Positions 16,680-62,307 of a stretch of 64,000 bases of DNA are shown piece after piece (the stretch's first letter is position 1; the number at the start of each line of letters is the position of its first letter). The stretch covers positions 61,814,001 to 61,878,000 of the forward strand of contig NC_042998.1 of assembly GCF_006345805.1 (NCBI RefSeq). The letters are read 5' to 3'. Position numbers and translations under genes: made by a program. Source of the stretch: Octopus sinensis (Eukaryota). Under the pieces are notes generated by a model that worked only from the letters and a program-made list of their open reading frames with translations, had not been told where the DNA came from and ran no database searches.

Positions 16680-18250
16680 TATATGAAAAAACAAGTCAAG
16701 ATAGAAGAAGAAGAAGAAGAAGAAGAAGAAGAAGAAGAAGAAGAAGAAGAGAAGAAGAAGACGAAGAAGAAGAAGAAGAAGAAGAAGAAGAAGAAGAAGA
16801 AGAAGAAGAAGAAGAAGAAGAAGAAGAAGAAGAAGAAGAAGAAGAAGAAGAAGAAGAAGAAGAAGAAGAAGAATGAATGAATGAAAGTAGTGAGGTGTTA
16901 AATGACTTAAAGTTGGCACGCTGTGGACTACAGCAGTGATTGGGGCTGCTTTTTAATGAATTCTTAGGAATGTAATATTTTCGTGTGTATTTGTGCTATT
17001 CCAAGGCCGAGTAGGGTATGTCGTTTGTCGTAGAGGCGTTCAGAAGGGGCCTGTATTTTGTAATAAAGAGAGCTTACTTAACAATTCGTTGGCTCCAAGT
17101 TGCATCGTCCCTGAATTGGTAGAGGGGAAAAATCCTGAAGCTTGGAGTTTTGTCGTTGGCGCAAATGTCTATGTGTTGGCTGAATGCTATTTTTCTGTTT
17201 TGGGGAATTTTTATCTGGGATCTGTGCAGGGCCATTCTTTGACGTAGACTATTTTTTGTTTGGCCTATGTATTGCTCTTGACATCCAGAGCAGGTTAATG
17301 TGCATATCAGGTTCTCCGAAATACATGTGAAGTTGCTTTTCACTGTGAAACGTTGTCCCTGTTTGAAGAAGAACTCTGATCCCTCAATTAGAAAATCGCA
17401 TATCCCACAATTGGGTCTTCCACATATTTTTACTGTCGGCTTCTGTGTTGTTGAGCGTATTCGGGCTTTTTTTAGGAGACTTTTCATAGATTTGGGCTGT
17501 CTCTTGATTTTTATGATAGTATGTGTTTGGAGGATTAAGTTCATTCTGTGGTCCTTTTTTAGCAGGGGTATGTTTTGGAGGATGGTGTCGAAGGCTTCAT
17601 TGTTAAGAGGGTTGTGTGTGGAGATGTATGGTAAGGCTTTCGGTTGTAAATTTTTCTTTAATTTGGGATGTCTGAGTTCCTGGATATTGAGTTGAAGGGC
17701 ACGTTGAATGCATATGTCAATTAGTGAAGGTGGGTAGTTCCTGGTGATGAGTGTATCTTTTGATTCATGTAGTCGTGTGTCTCTGGCGTTTGCATTAGAA
17801 ACTATAGTACATATCCTTTTTGCTAGATTGAAGGGGATATTCATTCTGGTGTGTCTGGGGTGGCATGAATTGAATGGTAGATATTGCTTGGAATCTGTAG
17901 GCTTATAGTATATATCTGTTTCTATTACGTTATTAAATTTCTTAATGAGGATGTCGAGGAAGGGGAGTTGTTGCTGGCTATATTCCATCGTGAATTGGAT
18001 GTTTACGTCCAGTCCATTTAAAAATGCTCACCGACAAAGAATATGACTATATGACCAATTTCACAAGTAAAACCAGCCAATTCTAAGATATCCCCAAATA
18101 TTCTTTTAAAAATTTTTTTCTTTTAATTTTTCTAAATTTAACTATTTAATTGTTACAGTTGAAAAAGTCTCAATGACTGAAACCGGTACTGAAATGTTCT
18201 TTATAAAATTATTTTAGCATTTTCTATCTTGACTTGTTTTCTTCATATAT
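16680..18250 (-). mobile_element. 5'-truncated Penelope-like element (RT C-terminus + GIY-YIG endonuclease) with inverted termini
   Basis: ORF 17988-17074 contains LPFLDILI, YYKPTDSKQYL..SCHP, CxxxxCxxC and LTCSGCQEQYIGQT. The frame continues past a premature stop into ALFITKYRPLLN. TTCTATCTTGACTTGTTTT at ~18221 is inverted at ~16687-16705. Confidence 0.9.
18156..18191 (+). ncRNA. Minimal hammerhead (U3-A8 variant) in a Penelope terminal repeat
   Basis: CAG-TTGAAAA-AGTC tcaat GACT-GAAAC-CGGTA-CTG, with palindromic ACCGGT stem III. It sits directly beside a Penelope RT/GIY-YIG ORF. Confidence 0.7.
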
Positions 18251-26923: not shown

Positions 26924-27167
26924 CTAACATTATAACTACCACCAACATCGCCATTATTTTCTTCACTCAGTCAACATTATCACCAGCATCAACATTATCA
27001 ACTTCATCCTCGACATCGTCATCTCATCATTATCATCACCGACACCATCATCATCACCATCATCGATATCACCATTATCGTCATCATTACAATCACCAAC
27101 ATCATCAGCCACCAGATGAAATCGAACGAAATCAAATGAAATCCGATCGTCAAAGCCAGCCAGAGCC

Positions 27168-27649
27168 ATGACGTCACTGTATTCCGTCGACGACAATCAC
27201 CCGTCCACGTTAATTATGTCATTATGTCAAAACAAGTCTTTACTGACGATGATGGACTACGGCGAAACGAGCAACAGCACAAACAGCAACCACAACAGCA
27301 ACAACAGCAACTGCATGAACAACAACCACACCAGCATCAACAACAGCAACAGCGACAACAACACCAGCGCTAACAGCAGCAACAACAACAACAGCAACAA
27401 CAGTAGCAACAACAGACTTGAAATGATTATTGTGCCGAGCATCTACGCCGTCGCCATTGTCGGCGGATGTATTGCTAATGGCGCTTTAATTACTCTTCTT
27501 TGTAAAAATCGCAGACAGAAATACAACAGCACAGGAATCCTGGTGCTCAATCTAGCCATTGCCGATTTGCTATTTCTTCTATTCTGGGTACCATTCCATA
27601 CGATTATCTACACTATGTCCATATGGCCGTTCGGAGATTTCATGTGCAG
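27168..27649 (+). CDS. Class A GPCR, galanin/allatostatin-A receptor-like, coding exon 1 (N-terminus, TM1, TM2, ECL1)
   Basis: Reads ...GGCIANGALITLL...NSTGILVLNLAIADLLFLLFWVPFHTIIYTMSIWPFGDFMC, with the LAxAD and WPFG-x3-C motifs. Donor AG|GTTAGT at 27649/27650, phase 2. The start ATG is uncertain because downstream in-frame ATGs exist. Confidence 0.92.
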
Positions 27650-33881: not shown

Positions 33882-33941
33882 GGATGATGATGATGATGAT
33901 TGCTTTTCTTTCCCTCAACTTTTTTTTCTTTTAATTTCCAG

Positions 33942-34692
33942 ATTTATCCACTACATGCAGTTCTCTAGTATGTTCGCCAACGTCTTCACACTGACCGCCA
34001 TGGCAGTCAACCGTTACGTCGCCATACGTTTCCCGATTTGGACGAGGCTCCGTCGTAACCACAAAGATGTCGTCATTATCAGTCTAGTCATTTGGATTGT
34101 GGCTCTTTGCCTCGGCATTCCATCGTCCCTTATCTACACTACTGTGGAATATCAAGGAAACTTTTACTGCACAGACTCCTTTCAAGATAAACGCCATTTA
34201 AGGCCGACATTTTTCCTTCTCAATTTCTTAATCGGTTACGTAATTCCACTGAGTACTATTCTGATTCTTAGCACCCTCACTGTATGTAATATGTGGAACT
34301 CAACCAATATGGAAGGCATAAACGCTGCTGAATCTCTTCGCAACAAACGTAGAGCTACGAAAATCGTAATATCTCTGGTTTTAGTATTTGCCTGTATGTG
34401 GTTTCCTTACCATTTGTTTTGGATATGGGTGAACTATTTCCATGACAGCTTCGAATGGTCGTATGCATTCTATTACTTCCAAGTATTTGCTTATTTGTTA
34501 GCTTTTACGAATTCTGCTTTAAATCCATTGGTCTACGCGTTCTGCTCGGAAACTTTCCGAAAGAAATTGTGCATTTGGTCGAAACGCAAGCAAGATCATT
34601 CGTTCCTGTCTCATTCGAGATTAACTAATCATTCTATTCGATCAATCCCTCAAAATACTCAAGAAATTCCAATGGACAAAATATCTCTGTAA
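33942..34692 (+). CDS. Same GPCR, coding exon 2 (TM3-TM7, C-tail)
   Basis: Pyrimidine tract and TTCCAG acceptor end at 33941, and the phase matches exon 1 (MC-R-FIHYMQ). Motifs: TLTAMAVNRYVAI, TM4 W, GYVIP, CMWFPYH, NSALNPLVY. Stop TAA ends at 34692. Spliced CDS is 1233 nt (410 aa). Confidence 0.95.
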
Positions 34693-34959
34693 ACAAACAA
34701 AAACAAATAAGCATATACTTTGTCTTTTTTTTTATCACGACTGCTGAACAATAGCATCATTGGTTAAAAGTCACAACGTAACAATTACTGGTTCACTATA
34801 TTTATAACGGCGACATGCTCCATGTCTGTAACTCAGTATAGAACAAATATTGCAAAAAAGCACTGGGTTTTTTTTCTTTTTTTACGTTTTTGTCGCCTGT
34901 GTATATATATCTTTCACCCATATACATCGGCAATAATATTTAAAATTCATGTACAGTTA

Positions 34960-35351
34960 AATGAAGGAAAGAAAATGGAAAGTTGAGATAATAATAATTA
35001 TCTATTATTTAAAAAGAAAGGTAATCTCTACTTCTTGCAGCCGTTTCCATTAGTGCTCAATAAGAAAATTACAAATTTATGCTATAAATTTGCATCTATA
35101 TGTTATGAGCATAATTTCACCATAGAAAAAGAGTCTGCTTGCATGAACAGAAAGGTCAGCGTGTAATATCTAAAGTTATATCATTTTCTCTGATGAAATT
35201 GTGCTCATAACATATAAATGCAAATTTATAGCATAAATTTGTAAGCTTCTTATTGAGCACTAATGGAAACGGTTGTAAGAAGTAAAGATTACCTGTTTTT
35301 TAATGATAAAAAAAATATTATTATTTTAACTCTCCATTTTCTTTCCTTCAT
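34960..35351. repeat. Inverted repeat with ~170-bp arms
   Basis: ATGAAGGAAAGAAAATGG...TAGAAAA / TTTTCTCTG...CCATTTTCTTTCCTTCAT, with a ~50-nt spacer. Confidence 0.9.
35185..35282 (+). ncRNA. Putative type I hammerhead ribozyme with long stem II
   Basis: Stem I TTTCT(35185-89)/AGAAG(35278-82). Core CTGATGA 35190-96. Stem II ATT-GTGCTCA...TGAGCAC-T-AAT. GAAAC 35266-70, then GGTT-GTA with predicted cut after 35277. The closing pair of stem II is a non-canonical A.G. Confidence 0.68.
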
Positions 35352-35587
35352 GAATTTTATTCTAAATATATAACTATTGATTTAAAGAATTTTCATTTCC
35401 CAAATATACTAGGTATAGAACCAGTATTTCCTTGGGTGTAACCATCCCTTTATGAGGTTAACATATCCTCTAGGCAACTTTAATAATTAACATACATACA
35501 TACATACTTACATACATACATACATACATACATACAAACAAACAAACAAACAAACAAACATAAGAAAAATAAGGTAAAGCTCAAGTT

Positions 35588-35809
35588 TAGTTTATTTTAA
35601 AGTTCCTACTCGCGTTTCACCATTATGGTTGTTTGGAGCTCTGCTATGGAAGTTTCAAATGTATATAAAAGCCCAACCACGCCGAATCCAAGGGATCGTG
35701 TTTCCTGACGAGCCAGCGTGACTGAGCATCTACATACATTTGGAATTCCTAGCATAAGGCTCCAAACAGCCAAATGGTGAAACGCGCGTAGGAACTTTAA
35801 TATAAACTA
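35588..35809. repeat. Inverted repeat with ~95-bp arms
   Basis: TAAAGTTCCTACTCGCGTTTCACCATT / AATGGTGAAACGCGCGTAGGAACTTTA. Confidence 0.88.
35700..35795 (+). ncRNA. Putative type I hammerhead ribozyme with ~59-nt loop II
   Basis: Stem I GTTTC/GGAAC. Core CTGACGA 35705-11. Stem II GCCA(35712-15)/TGGT(35775-78). GAAAC 35779-83, palindromic stem III ACGCGCGT, GTA cut site after 35790. Confidence 0.72.
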
Positions 35810-35910
35810 GTGTTTATCCTTATTATCCCTACAGTTGCTATGTAGCTCATAACTGGTAATGCTATTCAGCGTAGAAGTTACTTAACAACTATACAGAAAG
35901 CAGATGGGGG

Positions 35911-36229
35911 CGGACGTCGGATTTAGGAAGCACCAACAAGTTGGAATTTCTTCGTTTTGACGGGTTTTCTCAGATTTTTTTTTTTCACAGTGCCCTTGGA
36001 AAAGCTCTAGACTATCTTTTTAGCAAAATCTCCCTTTAATCATACACCATTTCGTCTGAAAATATCTACTTTTTTTTTTTACCGAAAAAGCATATTTCGC
36101 AAATTTTTTATTATTATTATTATTATTATTATCCAGAGCATTTCCAAGGGCACCGTGAAAATAAATGAAAAATCCTCTTCAAAACGAAGAAATTCTAACT
36201 TAATGGTGCTTCCTAAGTCCAATGTCCGT
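35911..36229. repeat. MITE-like inverted repeat with ~100-bp arms
   Basis: TTAGGAAGCACCA..GAATTTCTTCGTTTTGA / TCAAAACGAAGAAATTC..TGGTGCTTCCTAA, and GTGCCCTTGGAAA/TTTCCAAGGGCAC. Confidence 0.85.
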
Positions 36230-36758
36230 CGAGACGGGATTATAATAATCTAGGTGGAGGTCTAAACATAACCGTGACAATCATACATCAACTTGTACGT
36301 TACGTACAAGGTAACAGTTGACAATGGCTCGAAGTTTCGCCATGGATCGCCTTCGTAATACTGTCTGATTCTTTAGTCCTTGATGCTATTTATATGCTTA
36401 GGTTCGGCTTATGAGCAGAGTAGAAATGAGTTGAACGTACTATAAGAATATAATAAGTATTTAAAACAAAAGAATTTTTTACCGTTTGACTAAGCCAACC
36501 ATTGGCAAAACTTCGAAGTTCCTATCAACATTTTCCTTGAAACGATAAATTTAATACCTTTCCTAAATGCATTGAATCATCTTTCTGTGAACATTTCACT
36601 GTTTTTATGTACAACTGAACATAAAAAAATCCACATTCACATATAATATATACATACATACATACATACATACATACATACATACAAACATACAATACAT
36701 ACAGATATATGTGTGTGTGTGTATATAATATAATATATATATATATATATATAATATA

Positions 36759-51250: not shown

Positions 51251-52912
51251 ATCATCATCATTTAGCATCCGCTTTCCATGCTAGCATGGGTTGGACGGGT
51301 CAACTGGGGTCTGTGAAGCTGGAAGGCTTCGTCAGGCCCAGTCAGATCTGGCAGTGTTTCTACAACTGGATGCCCTTCCTAACGCCAACCACTCTGCGAG
51401 TGTAGTGGGTGTTTTTTACGTGCCACCTGCACAGGTGCCAGACAGAGCTGGCAAACGGCCATGAACGGATGGTGCTTTTACGTGTCACCGGCACAGGGCC
51501 AGGCGATGCTGGCAACGGACACGAACGGACGGTGCTTTTACGTGTCACCGGCATGGGGGCCAGCCGAGGCTGGCAACGGACACGAACGGATGGTGCTTTT
51601 ACGTGCCACCGACACGGTTGCCAGACAGAGCTGGCACACGGCCACGAACGGACGGTGCTTTTACGTGTCACCGGCACGGGGGCCAGCCGAGGCTGGCAAC
51701 GGACACGAACAGATGGTGCTTTTACATGCCACCGACACGGGGCCAGACAGAGCTGGCAAACGGCCACGAACGGACGGTGCTTTTACGTGTCACCGGCACG
51801 GGGCCAGGCAAGGCTGGCAGCGAACACGAACGGATGGTGCTTTTACGTGCCACTGACACGGGGGCCAGACAGAGCTGGCAAACGGCCACGAGCGAATGGT
51901 GCTTTTACATATCACCGACACGGGTGCCAGACGAGGCTGACAGCGGACACGAACGGATGGGTCACTTAACCCCTTATTTCTGATATATGATTTGATTTTG
52001 ATTGTTCTCACTGGTCTTGCCGGGTCTTCTGACGCACAGCATACTTCCATAGGTCTCGGTCTCTGGTCATTTCCTTGGTGAGACGTAGAGTTCGAAGGTC
52101 GTGCTTCACCACCTCGACCCAGGTTTTCCTGGGTCTACCTCTTCCACAGGTCCCCTCAACTGCCAGGGTGTGGCACTTTTTCACACACCTATCTTCATCC
52201 ATTCTCGCCACATGACCATACCAGCGCAATCGTCTCTCTTGCACACAACATCTGATGCCTCTTAGGTCCAACTTTTCTCTCAAGGTACTTACACTCTGTC
52301 GACTATGAACACTGACATTACACATCCAACGGAGCATACTAGCTTCATTTCTCGCGAGCTTACGCATGTCCTCAGCAGTCACGGCCCATGTTTCACTGCC
52401 ATGTAGCATGGCTGTTCGTACACATGCATCATACAGTCTGCCTTTTACTCTGAGCGAGAGGCCTTTAGTCACCAACAGAGGTAAGAGCTCCCTAAACTTT
52501 GCCCAGGCTATTCTTACTCGAGCCGTTACACTTTCAGCACACCCACCCCCACTACTGACTTGGTCACCAAGATAACGGAAGCTATCAACTACTACTAGTT
52601 TTTCCCCCTGGAAAGTGACGGAAGTTGTTTTCTGCAGATTTTCAGAGGTTAATGCTCCCGAGCATCTGCCACATACAAAAACCATCTTCCTAGTTAGCCT
52701 TCCTATGACATTGCTGCACCTCTTATGTGTCTATAGCTTACACTTGGTGCATCTTATAGAGTTTCTACCTACACCTTTTCTACAGATCGAGCAGGGCCAT
52801 CTACCTGAAGGCGTTTGTGATTTGTCTACCTTCCTACTTATTACGACTTTGGTTTTAGCTAGGTTGACTCTAAGGCCCTTCGATTCTAAACCTTGCTTCC
52901 ACACCTGAAACT
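51251..52912 (-). mobile_element. RTE LINE 3' part (second family)
   Basis: FRYLG, HGSETW, RLRWYGHV and RGRPRKTW motifs. The 3' UTR holds a ~60-bp tandem array and a (TGA)n tail. Confidence 0.9.
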
Positions 52913-57033: not shown

Positions 57034-57542
57034 GAAATCGATCAATGGAAATTGCAGATGTGTTACCAGTGCCGGTGGCATGTTGAAACTCTACTTGTGA
57101 AGACCTGTTGAGGCAAGTGAGGATCAGAATCGAAATCGATCAATGGAAATTGCAGATGTGTTACCAGTGCCGGTGGCTAGTAAGAGAACCTTCCGTTTCG
57201 CGACCGTTGCCAGCGCCGCCCCGACTGGCCTCGTGCCGGTGGCACGTAAAAAGCACCATCCGTTTGTGTCCGTTGCCAGCCTCGACCGGCCCTCGTGCCG
57301 GTGGCACATAAAAAGCACCATCCGTTCGTGGCCGTTTGCCAGCTCTGTCTGGCACCTGTGCGGGTGGCACGTAAAAAGCACCCACTACACTCACGGAGTG
57401 GTTGGCGTTAGGAAGGGCATCTAGCCGTTGAAACACTGCCAGATTTGACTGGGCCTGATGAAGCCTTCTGGCTTCACAGACCCCAGTAGAACCGTCCAAC
57501 CCATGCTAGCATGGAAAAACGGACGCTAAACTGATGATGATG

Positions 57543-58139: not shown

Positions 58140-59372
58140 GATTTCAGAACAACTTCTGTCACATTCCAAGGAGAAAAACTAGAAGTAGTTGGCAGCTTCC
58201 ATTACCTAGGTGACCAAGTCAGTAGCAGGGGTGGATGCTCTGAACGAGTAGCTGCTAGAATAAGAATAGCCTGGGCAAAGTTCAGAGAGCTCCTACCCCT
58301 GCTAGTGACAAAGGGCCTCTCGCTCAGAGAAAAAAGGTAGACTGCATGACGTGTATGAACAGCCATGCTACATGGCAGTGAAGCATAGGCCATGACTGCT
58401 GAGGACATGCGTAAGCTTGTATTGAATGAAGCCAGTATGCTCCGATGGATGTGTAATGTCAGTGTGCATACACAACAGAGTGCAGGCACCTTGAGAGAAA
58501 AGTTGGACCTAAGAAGCATCAGATGTGGTGTGCAAGAGAGACAACTGTGCTGGTATGGTCAGGTGGGGCAAATGGATGAGGACAGCTGTGTGAAAAAGTG
58601 TCACACCCTAGCAGTTAAGAGAATCTGTGGAAGAGGTAGACCAAGGAAGACCTGGGATGAGGTGGTGAAGCACGGCCTTCAAACATTGGGCCTCAGCGAG
58701 GCAATGACTAGTGACCAAGAGTTTTGGAAATATGCTGTGCTTGAGAAGACCTGGCAAGCCAAGTGAGACCATAACCTGTGGCCTATGCCAGCAGTGTAAC
58801 CAGCCTACTTATGCGTACCTTTCTTTCGTTGAACACTAAACTTTGCTTGCGAAGACCTGTTAAGGCAAGTGAAATCACAATCAAAATCAAATTCGCTGAT
58901 GTGACTGAAGACAGCACTGCCTGACTGGCACCCATGCCAGGGGAACGTTAAAAGCACCATTCAAGCGCGATCGTTGCCAAGTCCACTGACTGGCTCCTGT
59001 GCCAGTGACACATAAAAGGCACCATTCGAGTGTGATCGTTACCAGCATTACCTTACTGGCACGTGAAAAACAACATTCGAGCAAGGTTGTTGCCAGTGCC
59101 ACTGGACTGGCTCCTGTACAGGTGGCACATAAAAACCACCATTTGAGCATGGCCATCGCCAGTACTGCCTGACTGGCCCTCATGCCAGTGACACATAAAA
59201 GCTCCCACTACACTCTTGGAGTGGTTGGTGTTAGGAAGGGCATCCAGCTGTAGAAACTGCCAGATCAGATTGGAGCCTGGTGCAGCCATCTGGCTCACCA
59301 GTCCTCAGTCAAACTGTCCAACCCATGCCAGCATGGAAAGCAGACATTAAATGATGATAATGATGATGATGA
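58140..59372 (+). mobile_element. RTE LINE 3' part, diverged copy
   Basis: Same ORF motifs and 3' UTR as 51251-52912, in the opposite orientation. Confidence 0.88.
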
Positions 59373-61409: not shown

Positions 61410-62307
61410 CCGGGTAGAGGTTGGGGTCCACCAAGGTTCAGTCCTCAGCCCCCTCCTATTTATCATAGTCCTCCAGGCAATAACGGAAGAATTTAAGACA
61501 GGATGCCCCTGGGAGCTCCTCTATGCTGATGACCTTGCTCTAATTGCTGAGTCACTATCAGAACTGGAGGAGAAGTTTCAGGTGTGGAAACAAGGATTAG
61601 AATCGAAGGGCCTTAGAATCAACCTAGCCAAAACCAAAGTCCTAATAAGTAGGATGGTGGACCAACCACAAACGACTTCAGGTAGATGGCCCTGCTCAAT
61701 CTGTAAAAAAGGTGTAGGTAGAAACTCTATAAGGTGCACCAAGTGTAAGCTATGGACACATAAGAGGTGCAGCAACGTCAAAGGTAGGCTAACTGGGAAG
61801 ATAGTTTTCGTATGTGGCAGATGCTCAGGAGAAATAAACACTGGAAATGTGCAGAGACCAACTTCTACCACGTTCCAGGGAGACAAACTAGAAGTAGTTG
61901 ATAGCTTCCGCTACCTAGGAGACCAAGTTAGTAGCGGGGATGGGTGTGCTGAAAGTGTAACTGCTAGAGTAAGAATAGCCTGGGCAAAGTTTAGAGAGAC
62001 ATAAAAACACCATCCGAGCGTGGCCGTTCGCCAGCTTCGTCTGGCACCTGTGTCGGTGGCACATAAAAAACACCATCCGAGCGTGGCCGTTCGCCAGCCT
62101 CGTCTGGCACCTGTGTCGGTGGCACATAAAATCACCCACTACACTCTCGGAGTGGTTGGCGTTAGGAAGGGCATCCAGCTGTAGAAACACTGCCAGATCT
62201 GACTGGCCTGGTGCAGCCTTCGGGCTCCCCAGACCCCAGTTGAACCGTCCAACCCATGCTAGCATGGAAAGCGGACGTTAAATGATGATGATGATGATGA
62301 TGATGAT
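61408..62307 (+). mobile_element. RTE LINE fragment with internal deletion
   Basis: GVHQGSVLSPLLF, YADD, a Cys/His finger and FRYLG. It jumps to the 3' UTR at ~61997. Confidence 0.88.

What the first reader, a model, noticed from the sequence alone, without database searches (positions are those of the whole stretch)
34960..35809. Each ribozyme has a built-in antisense arm: possible dsRNA/ADAR-gated switch
Seen: the upstream arms (34960-35130 and 35588-35682) are complementary to the downstream ribozyme arms, with G.U and A.C mismatches. Inference: in a + transcript the long duplex and the hammerhead fold are mutually exclusive. A-to-I editing, which is extensive in coleoid neurons, or helicases could decide which one forms.
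Basis: inference. Interest (0 to 1): 0.7.

Follow-up and report, generated by a model that had tools for sequence, protein, structure and literature searches.

The report
Edited Penelope hairpins silence their ribozymes
Two old jumping-gene scraps behind an octopus-type receptor gene each carry a self-cutting RNA motif next to its own mirror copy, a known by-product of how these elements insert; the paired RNA shows A-to-G editing, which likely keeps the cutters off rather than acting as a switch.

Summary
The arms are real: 34942-35132 pairs with 35181-35358, and 35563-35682 with 35716-35831 (scores 259 and 126; best of 1000 shuffles 61 and 34). Both cover type I hammerhead motifs. Each unit is the 3' end of a dispersed, decayed repeat (534 and 169 candidates) with an abutting inverted, 5'-truncated copy. 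About a quarter of other copies look the same, with a tail on one arm only. This is the published Penelope-like-element insertion pattern; the first family was traced to a decayed RT/GIY-YIG-type frame. The units lie behind a GPCR stop codon. RNA contigs from one study show clustered A>G changes in the arms (61 of 81 changed places), so transcription and editing are supported. A switch is not: the duplex beats the ribozyme fold by 81-108 kcal/mol and still by 25-28 with every non-core A unpaired. Edits hit core A14, A15.1 and the cleavage base. Arms and cores decay neutrally. One weak counter-hint: three contigs end just before ribozyme 1's site. The scan noted such Penelope hairpins before in other genomes, there with editing scars in DNA; none were found here.

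The parts
27120..27649 (+). First coding exon of a rhodopsin-type GPCR (start not fixed)
   Evidence: Pfam 7tm_1; loose end of an RNA contig of X5 before 33939 matches here
33942..34692 (+). Last coding exon of the GPCR; nearest solved structure is galanin receptor 1
   Evidence: Pfam 7tm_1 E 1e-34; phmmer E 1.6e-26; RNA contigs of X1 with 0 differences
34693..36638 (+). Likely 3' UTR; tiled by separate RNA contigs with a gap at about 35270-35708
   Evidence: no single contig spans it
34942..35132 (-). Inverted, 5'-truncated copy of repeat E1 without tail (antisense arm 1); its own core is broken
35133..35485 (+). Sense copy of E1, the 3' end of a decayed Penelope-like element, with tail at about 35359-35485
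35180..35289 (+). Hammerhead 1 (type I, long helix II, 2-bp helix III, A.G at base of helix II); site after A35277
   Evidence: core letters intact
35490..35562 (.). Microsatellite between the E1 tail and the E2 inverted copy; likely insertion target
   Evidence: target bias from PMC8557442
35563..35696 (-). Inverted copy of repeat E2 without tail (antisense arm 2; good pairing ends at 35682)
   Evidence: left end and 35683-35696 read by eye
35698..35905 (+). Sense copy of E2 with tail; holds hammerhead 2 (35700-35795, palindromic helix III, site after A35790)
35911..36228 (.). Third head-to-head repeat pair E3 (arms 35911-36011 and 36132-36228), also edited; no canonical hammerhead seen

Best explanation
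The antisense arms are inverted, 5'-truncated copies of the same repeats, likely laid down when Penelope-like retroelements inserted behind this GPCR gene, and in the transcript they form long duplexes that are A-to-G edited and are predicted to keep both hammerheads inactive. Steps: (1) head-to-head pairs with a tail on one arm recur across both families (shown). (2) E1 is the 3' end of an RT/endonuclease element (shown by homology; not shown for E2). (3) The upstream arm is made first and would capture the ribozyme strand as it emerges (inferred). (4) ADAR edits the duplex at many sites, including core adenosines (A>G shown in low-depth contigs; enzyme inferred). (5) No cleavage-competent state is populated (predicted).
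For: E1: 9 of 37 other loci are clear head-to-head pairs (plus 1 weak); E2: 10 of 31 other fetched loci, with 8 listed singles not fetched. Tail on exactly one arm in 10 of 10 E1 pairs and 6 of 6 aligned E2 pairs (read by eye). This pattern is described in PMC8557442. A young intact element, L198, has an abutting inverted copy at 98.7%. Arm identity is 0.88 here vs 0.84-0.91 in other E1 pairs, and 0.85 vs 0.77-0.86 in E2; G.U:A.C is 71:82 and 42:40 elsewhere; core columns 0.904 vs other columns 0.906. A>G makes up 25/30, 7/12, 13/19 and 16/20 changed places; 32 of 33 listed A>G lie in arms. The DNA-like contig 33911-35289 has 1 difference. The energy gap is 108/81 kcal/mol unedited and 28/25 at the extreme. 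An X1 contig crosses site 2 uncut with A14, A15.1 and A17 read as G. Inosine at the cleavage base slowed a hammerhead about 30-fold (PMC3923133).
Against: Both cores are intact although only 13 of 49 E1 and 4 of 38 E2 aligned copies are (about 3% jointly, but the locus was picked for this and truncated copies are in the counts). No contig spans site 1, and three end 8-18 nt before it. Two contigs over the outer arm (to 34982 and 34992) show no A>G among the 31 A of 34931-34992. Editing data come from one study, at depth 2.5-6, with RNA status a guess and no DNA of the same animals. No coding parent was found for E2. A PLE hammerhead cleaved in vitro only with its protein (PMC11167929), which energy models ignore.
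Confidence: 0.8

Rival explanations
1. Editing- or helicase-gated switch: ADAR or a helicase opens the duplex so that the hammerhead folds and cuts the GPCR mRNA.
For: Duplex and editing are real. Both cores are intact. The host is a neuropeptide-type GPCR.
Against: The gap stays at 25 kcal/mol or more with every non-core A unpaired. Edits hit A14, A15.1 and A17. The motifs are weak even alone (5-12 kcal/mol above the best fold) and of a type that showed no monomer activity (PMC4209133). No selection signal. In squid, repeat and UTR editing is mostly the ubiquitous type, not neural (PMC9068888).
Confidence: 0.05
2. Hammerhead 1 does cut a fraction of transcripts (protein-assisted or kinetic), and the 5' product keeps a 97-bp duplex that is then edited.
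For: All 3 contigs that cross loop 1 end at 35259-35269 and none crosses 35277. Outer-arm contigs are unedited.
Against: Post hoc, n=3, and the contigs are fragment-sized (204-314 nt). A35030, paired to 35283 beyond the site, is edited. Heavily edited reads fall below the 91% cut. The base of helix II is A.G, and the helix III self-dimer is only -1.8 kcal/mol.
Confidence: 0.08
3. The ribozymes are irrelevant, but the three edited hairpins themselves tune the GPCR mRNA (retention, decay or translation), or the arms were a safety catch that let sense-strand ribozymes be tolerated in a UTR.
For: Three fold-backs in 1.3 kb, all edited. Each family is paired at only about a quarter to a third of loci.
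Against: No excess arm identity and no G.U bias. Microsatellite targeting explains part of the clustering. This is compatible with the best explanation and adds only a function that was not tested.
Confidence: 0.07

Closest known systems
Inverted-repeat plus tail insertions of EN+ Penelope-like elements (Craig et al. 2021, PMC8557442); for E1 probably the Hydra clade
   Same: Inverted 5'-truncated copy abutting the 5' end, tail at one end only, microsatellite targets, hammerhead near the 3' end; CxCx5C linker in the E1 parent and its intact relative, which also has DKT and an RWR motif
   Different: Tails here are about 80-130 nt, not 30-40; only 3' scraps remain; no RT tree was built; E2 has no coding parent found
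Minimal type I hammerheads of metazoan PLEs (Cervera and de la Pena 2014, PMC4209133)
   Same: Short helix I, long helix II, tiny near-palindromic helix III; that paper also notes pairs 100-700 bp apart on opposite strands
   Different: Helix II is far longer (about 65-70 nt enclosed); the base of helix II is A.G or G.U, not the conserved G-C
Hyper-edited inverted repeats in metazoan transcripts (Porath et al. 2017, PMC5625713; Albertin et al. 2022, PMC9068888)
   Same: Clustered A>G in fold-back repeats of non-coding regions; lizard Penelope and octopus are named as heavily edited
   Different: Here the edited duplex holds a ribozyme core, and catalytic adenosines are among the edited sites
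Engineered editing-sensitive hammerheads (Fukuda et al. 2014, PMC3923133)
   Same: Inosine in the cleavage triplet blocks cutting
   Different: Artificial, trans-acting and site-specific; here editing is promiscuous and the core is sequestered

Membership tests
EN+ Penelope-like element insertion | RT plus GIY-YIG-type ORF upstream of the repeat end, same strand | tested here: met
   E1 only: copies L171, L176 and L018 carry decayed frames matching a 960-aa intact ORF (E down to 1e-17). That ORF has no Pfam RT or GIY-YIG hit, but Atlas neighbours at 0.95-0.98 carry GIY-YIG/RVT_1 in a share of members
EN+ Penelope-like element insertion | Same ORF link for E2 | tested here: inconclusive
   Only 1 copy (L039) has an endonuclease remnant within 1.4 kb upstream, with an inverted copy in between
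EN+ Penelope-like element insertion | Variable 5' truncation with abutting inverted copy | tested here: met
   young example L198
EN+ Penelope-like element insertion | Tail at one end only; microsatellite target | tested here: met
   10 of 10 E1 and 6 of 6 E2 pairs; tail longer than published
Hydra clade | DKT, RWK-like and CxCx5C motifs; RT phylogeny | tested here: inconclusive
   Motifs read by eye in L197 and (CxCx5C) in the E1 parent; no tree built
Type I hammerhead ribozyme | CUGANGA, GAAA, NUH with three helices | tested here: met
   no Rfam match
Type I hammerhead ribozyme | G10.1-C11.1 pair | tested here: not met
   A.G in hammerhead 1 (family-wide) and G.U in hammerhead 2
Type I hammerhead ribozyme | Self-cleavage | not testable with these tools
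   Site 2 is crossed by an uncut contig; site 1 is not crossed
ADAR hyper-edited inverted repeat | Strand-specific A>G clusters in paired arms, absent from DNA | tested here: met
   one study, no matched DNA
ADAR hyper-edited inverted repeat | Depletion of G 5' of edited A | tested here: inconclusive
   2 of 33 edited vs 19 of 139 background, p=0.24
RNA conformational switch | Two folds of comparable energy, shifted by the trigger | tested here: not met
   Gap 108/81 kcal/mol, and 28/25 at the extreme
RNA conformational switch | Conservation across orthologous loci | not tested
Non-LTR retrozyme | Head-to-tail tandem units with one hammerhead each | tested here: not met
   Copies are single or head-to-head; E1 and E2 are different families

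The most novel reading that the evidence does not exclude
Probability: 0.07. Interest if true: 0.75.

Novelty: new member of a known kind. Interest (0 to 1): 0.32.

Why it matters
On the likely reading this is a tidy example of how Penelope insertions supply their own double-stranded RNA and so become ADAR targets in a host UTR. It also suggests why sense-strand ribozymes can sit behind a gene without destroying its mRNA. Editing of a genomic hammerhead's catalytic adenosines did not turn up in the listings of four literature searches. If cleavage at site 1 were shown and tracked with editing, it would be a natural link between A-to-I editing and ribozyme control of a host mRNA.

Tried and rejected
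Rfam gave no hammerhead; its weak hits are generic hairpin models. The run search listed no holder on record as RNA, so X1-X7 are guessed RNA; one shows a spliced exon joint. X5 and X7, from other studies, gave no locus-specific contig over the hairpins among the listed pieces, and the gap at 35270-35708 proves nothing. Laying at 85% was swamped by paralogues. The abundant RT+GIY-YIG family of window 17074-18027 is not the parent of E1 or E2: no E hits in its 30 loci. An editing scar in the DNA copies was rejected: no strand-biased A>G in 49 E1 or 38 E2 copies, which also argues against scarred paralogues as the source of the RNA changes. A heterodimer of the two hammerheads is weak (-2.3 kcal/mol). 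A MITE reading was rejected for E1 because its parent is coding and its truncation points vary. A tight E2 pattern found only 2 places and no coding parent. Earlier findings by place and by sequence were empty.

Full report
Observation. Arm 1 aligns 34931-35132 with 35181-35379 (170 pairs, 8 G.U, 7 A.C, 8 other, 15 gaps) and arm 2 aligns 35561-35682 with 35716-35831 (98, 3, 7, 5, 12). Scores of 259 and 126 exceed the best of 1000 shuffles, 61 and 34. Each downstream arm holds a type I hammerhead motif with cores at 35190/35266 and 35705/35779 and sites after A35277 and A35790. Rfam does not recognise them. A third fold-back follows at 35911-36228.

Setting. The window lies in a 2.7-Gb genome; that it is octopus-like is my inference from its repeats and size. 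The hairpins follow the stop codon (34692) of a rhodopsin-type GPCR whose nearest solved structure is galanin receptor 1. A contig of run X5 joins this exon to one ending at 27649. Separate contigs tile from the coding exon to 36638, with a gap at about 35270-35708, so the hairpins are likely in the 3' UTR.

What the arms are. Each unit is a dispersed repeat: E1 has 534 candidates, E2 169 and E3 168, with 40 scored each. I fetched all 38 E1 loci listed; 9 of the 37 others are clear head-to-head pairs and 1 is weak. Of 31 other E2 loci fetched, 10 are pairs; 4 of these were picked because they were pairs, and 8 listed singles were not fetched. Pairs are over-sampled by a ranked search. Junction points vary between loci. 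One arm carries a tail and the other stops short, mostly at a microsatellite, in 10 of 10 E1 pairs and 6 of 6 aligned E2 pairs (read by eye, and the middle was cut). Craig et al. describe this for Penelope-like elements: an inverted 5'-truncated copy adjacent at the 5' end, a tail at one end and microsatellite targets (PMC8557442, passages). Walking upstream from E1 through longer copies reached decayed frames on the same strand. They match a 960-aa intact ORF in this genome, flanked by direct repeats that hold a similar hammerhead. Pfam misses that ORF; Atlas neighbours carry GIY-YIG or RVT_1 in 16-77% of members; its DKT and CxCx5C motifs fit the Hydra clade as described. A young copy, L198, has an abutting inverted copy at 98.7%, so the arm arises at insertion. 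No coding parent was found for E2. The hammerheads fit the minimal PLE type, which showed no monomer activity and little dimer activity in vitro (PMC4209133, parts 1-2 of 4 read).

No sign of selection. Arm identity is 0.88 here against 0.84-0.91 in the other clear E1 pairs, and 0.85 against 0.77-0.86 for E2. G.U and A.C are balanced elsewhere (71:82, 42:40) and here (14:19 over three hairpins), whereas selection on a + strand duplex would favour G.U. Core columns are no better kept than others (0.904 vs 0.906). Against this, both cores here are intact while only 13 of 49 E1 and 4 of 38 E2 aligned copies are; the locus was chosen for that property.

Editing. In four runs of one study, guessed to be RNA, A>G makes up 25 of 30, 7 of 12, 13 of 19 and 16 of 20 changed places. 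Forty of 47 rows were shown; 33 are A>G and 32 lie in arms (32 of 139 A in the arm parts I counted, 1 of 169 outside). I left 34931-35029 out of that count; two contigs reaching 34982 and 34992 show no A>G there. Loose ends continue with A>G only (9, 4 and 9 changes). The contigs cross locus-specific junctions, the sets of sites differ between runs, X1's coding-exon contigs have 0 differences, and a DNA-like contig over 33911-35289 has 1 difference. That run may be the source of the assembly, and no DNA of the same animals was available. Depth is 2.5-6, where single differences may be errors; the pattern, not any one site, carries the claim. The DNA copies show no editing scar. Clustered editing of fold-back repeats, of lizard Penelope and in octopus is published (PMC5625713, passages); in squid, UTR and repeat editing is mostly ubiquitous rather than neural (PMC9068888, passages).

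Switch or silencer. Forcing the hammerhead fold costs 5-12 kcal/mol without the arm and 108 or 81 with it. Making 25-100% of non-core adenosines unpairable, a harsh model of inosine, leaves 59-85 down to 28 for unit 1 and 56-73 down to 25 for unit 2. One X1 contig crosses site 2 uncut with A14, A15.1 and A17 read as G; X2 shares A15.1; an X3 loose end has A14 of hammerhead 1 changed. Inosine at the cleavage base slowed an engineered hammerhead about 30-fold (PMC3923133, passages). That A14 is essential is recalled, not from a call. Duplex and editing therefore both point to off.

Counter-evidence. No contig crosses site 1, and the three that cross loop 1 end at 35259, 35268 and 35269. This is post hoc, the contigs are fragment-sized, and A35030, whose partner lies beyond the site, is edited. 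Still, it keeps partial cleavage open, the more so as a lizard PLE hammerhead needed its protein to cut (PMC11167929, parts 1-2 of 4).

Novelty. The architecture and the editing are both known kinds. Editing of a genomic hammerhead core in a host UTR did not appear in the listings; the library lacks most subscription papers, and no supplements were read. The retrozyme preprint (10.64898/2026.07.22.740005, part 1 of 5) concerns tandem units, which these are not. Verdict: observation confirmed, interpretation partly supported, new member of a known kind, interest 0.32.

Noticed in passing
window 17074-18027 (-); L109, L120: Fragment of a very abundant RT plus GIY-YIG family (19,256 candidates, frames up to 789 aa). 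Its 3' end has a hammerhead-like motif with the U3-A8 core variant, read by eye.
   Followed up: partly
L197 (G000:C26:1190500-1198000) and L198 (G000:C4:78516000-78523500): Young intact 960-aa Penelope-like elements with Hydra-type motifs, 1.67-kb direct repeats and hammerheads; L198 has a 98.7% inverted copy at its 5' side. Pfam does not detect the ORF.
   Followed up: partly
window 35911-36228: Third repeat family E3, often head-to-head elsewhere (L068, L072, L077, L080), edited here, with no canonical hammerhead core; class not determined.
   Followed up: partly
window 35259-35269: Three RNA contigs from three runs end 8-18 nt before hammerhead 1's site; cleavage or chance fragment ends.
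   Followed up: partly
window 36160: The only AATAAA/ATTAAA between 34690 and 38000 lies inside an E3 arm, yet RNA contigs run on to 36638; the poly(A) site is unknown.
   Followed up: no
window 51414-51960, 57167-57382, 58921-59177, 61999-62131: Arrays of a 61-65-nt GC-rich unit beside RTE-like reverse transcriptase fragments.
   Followed up: no
L081 3613-4628: A roughly 1-kb inverted repeat with internal duplications inserted inside an E1 parent copy.
   Followed up: no
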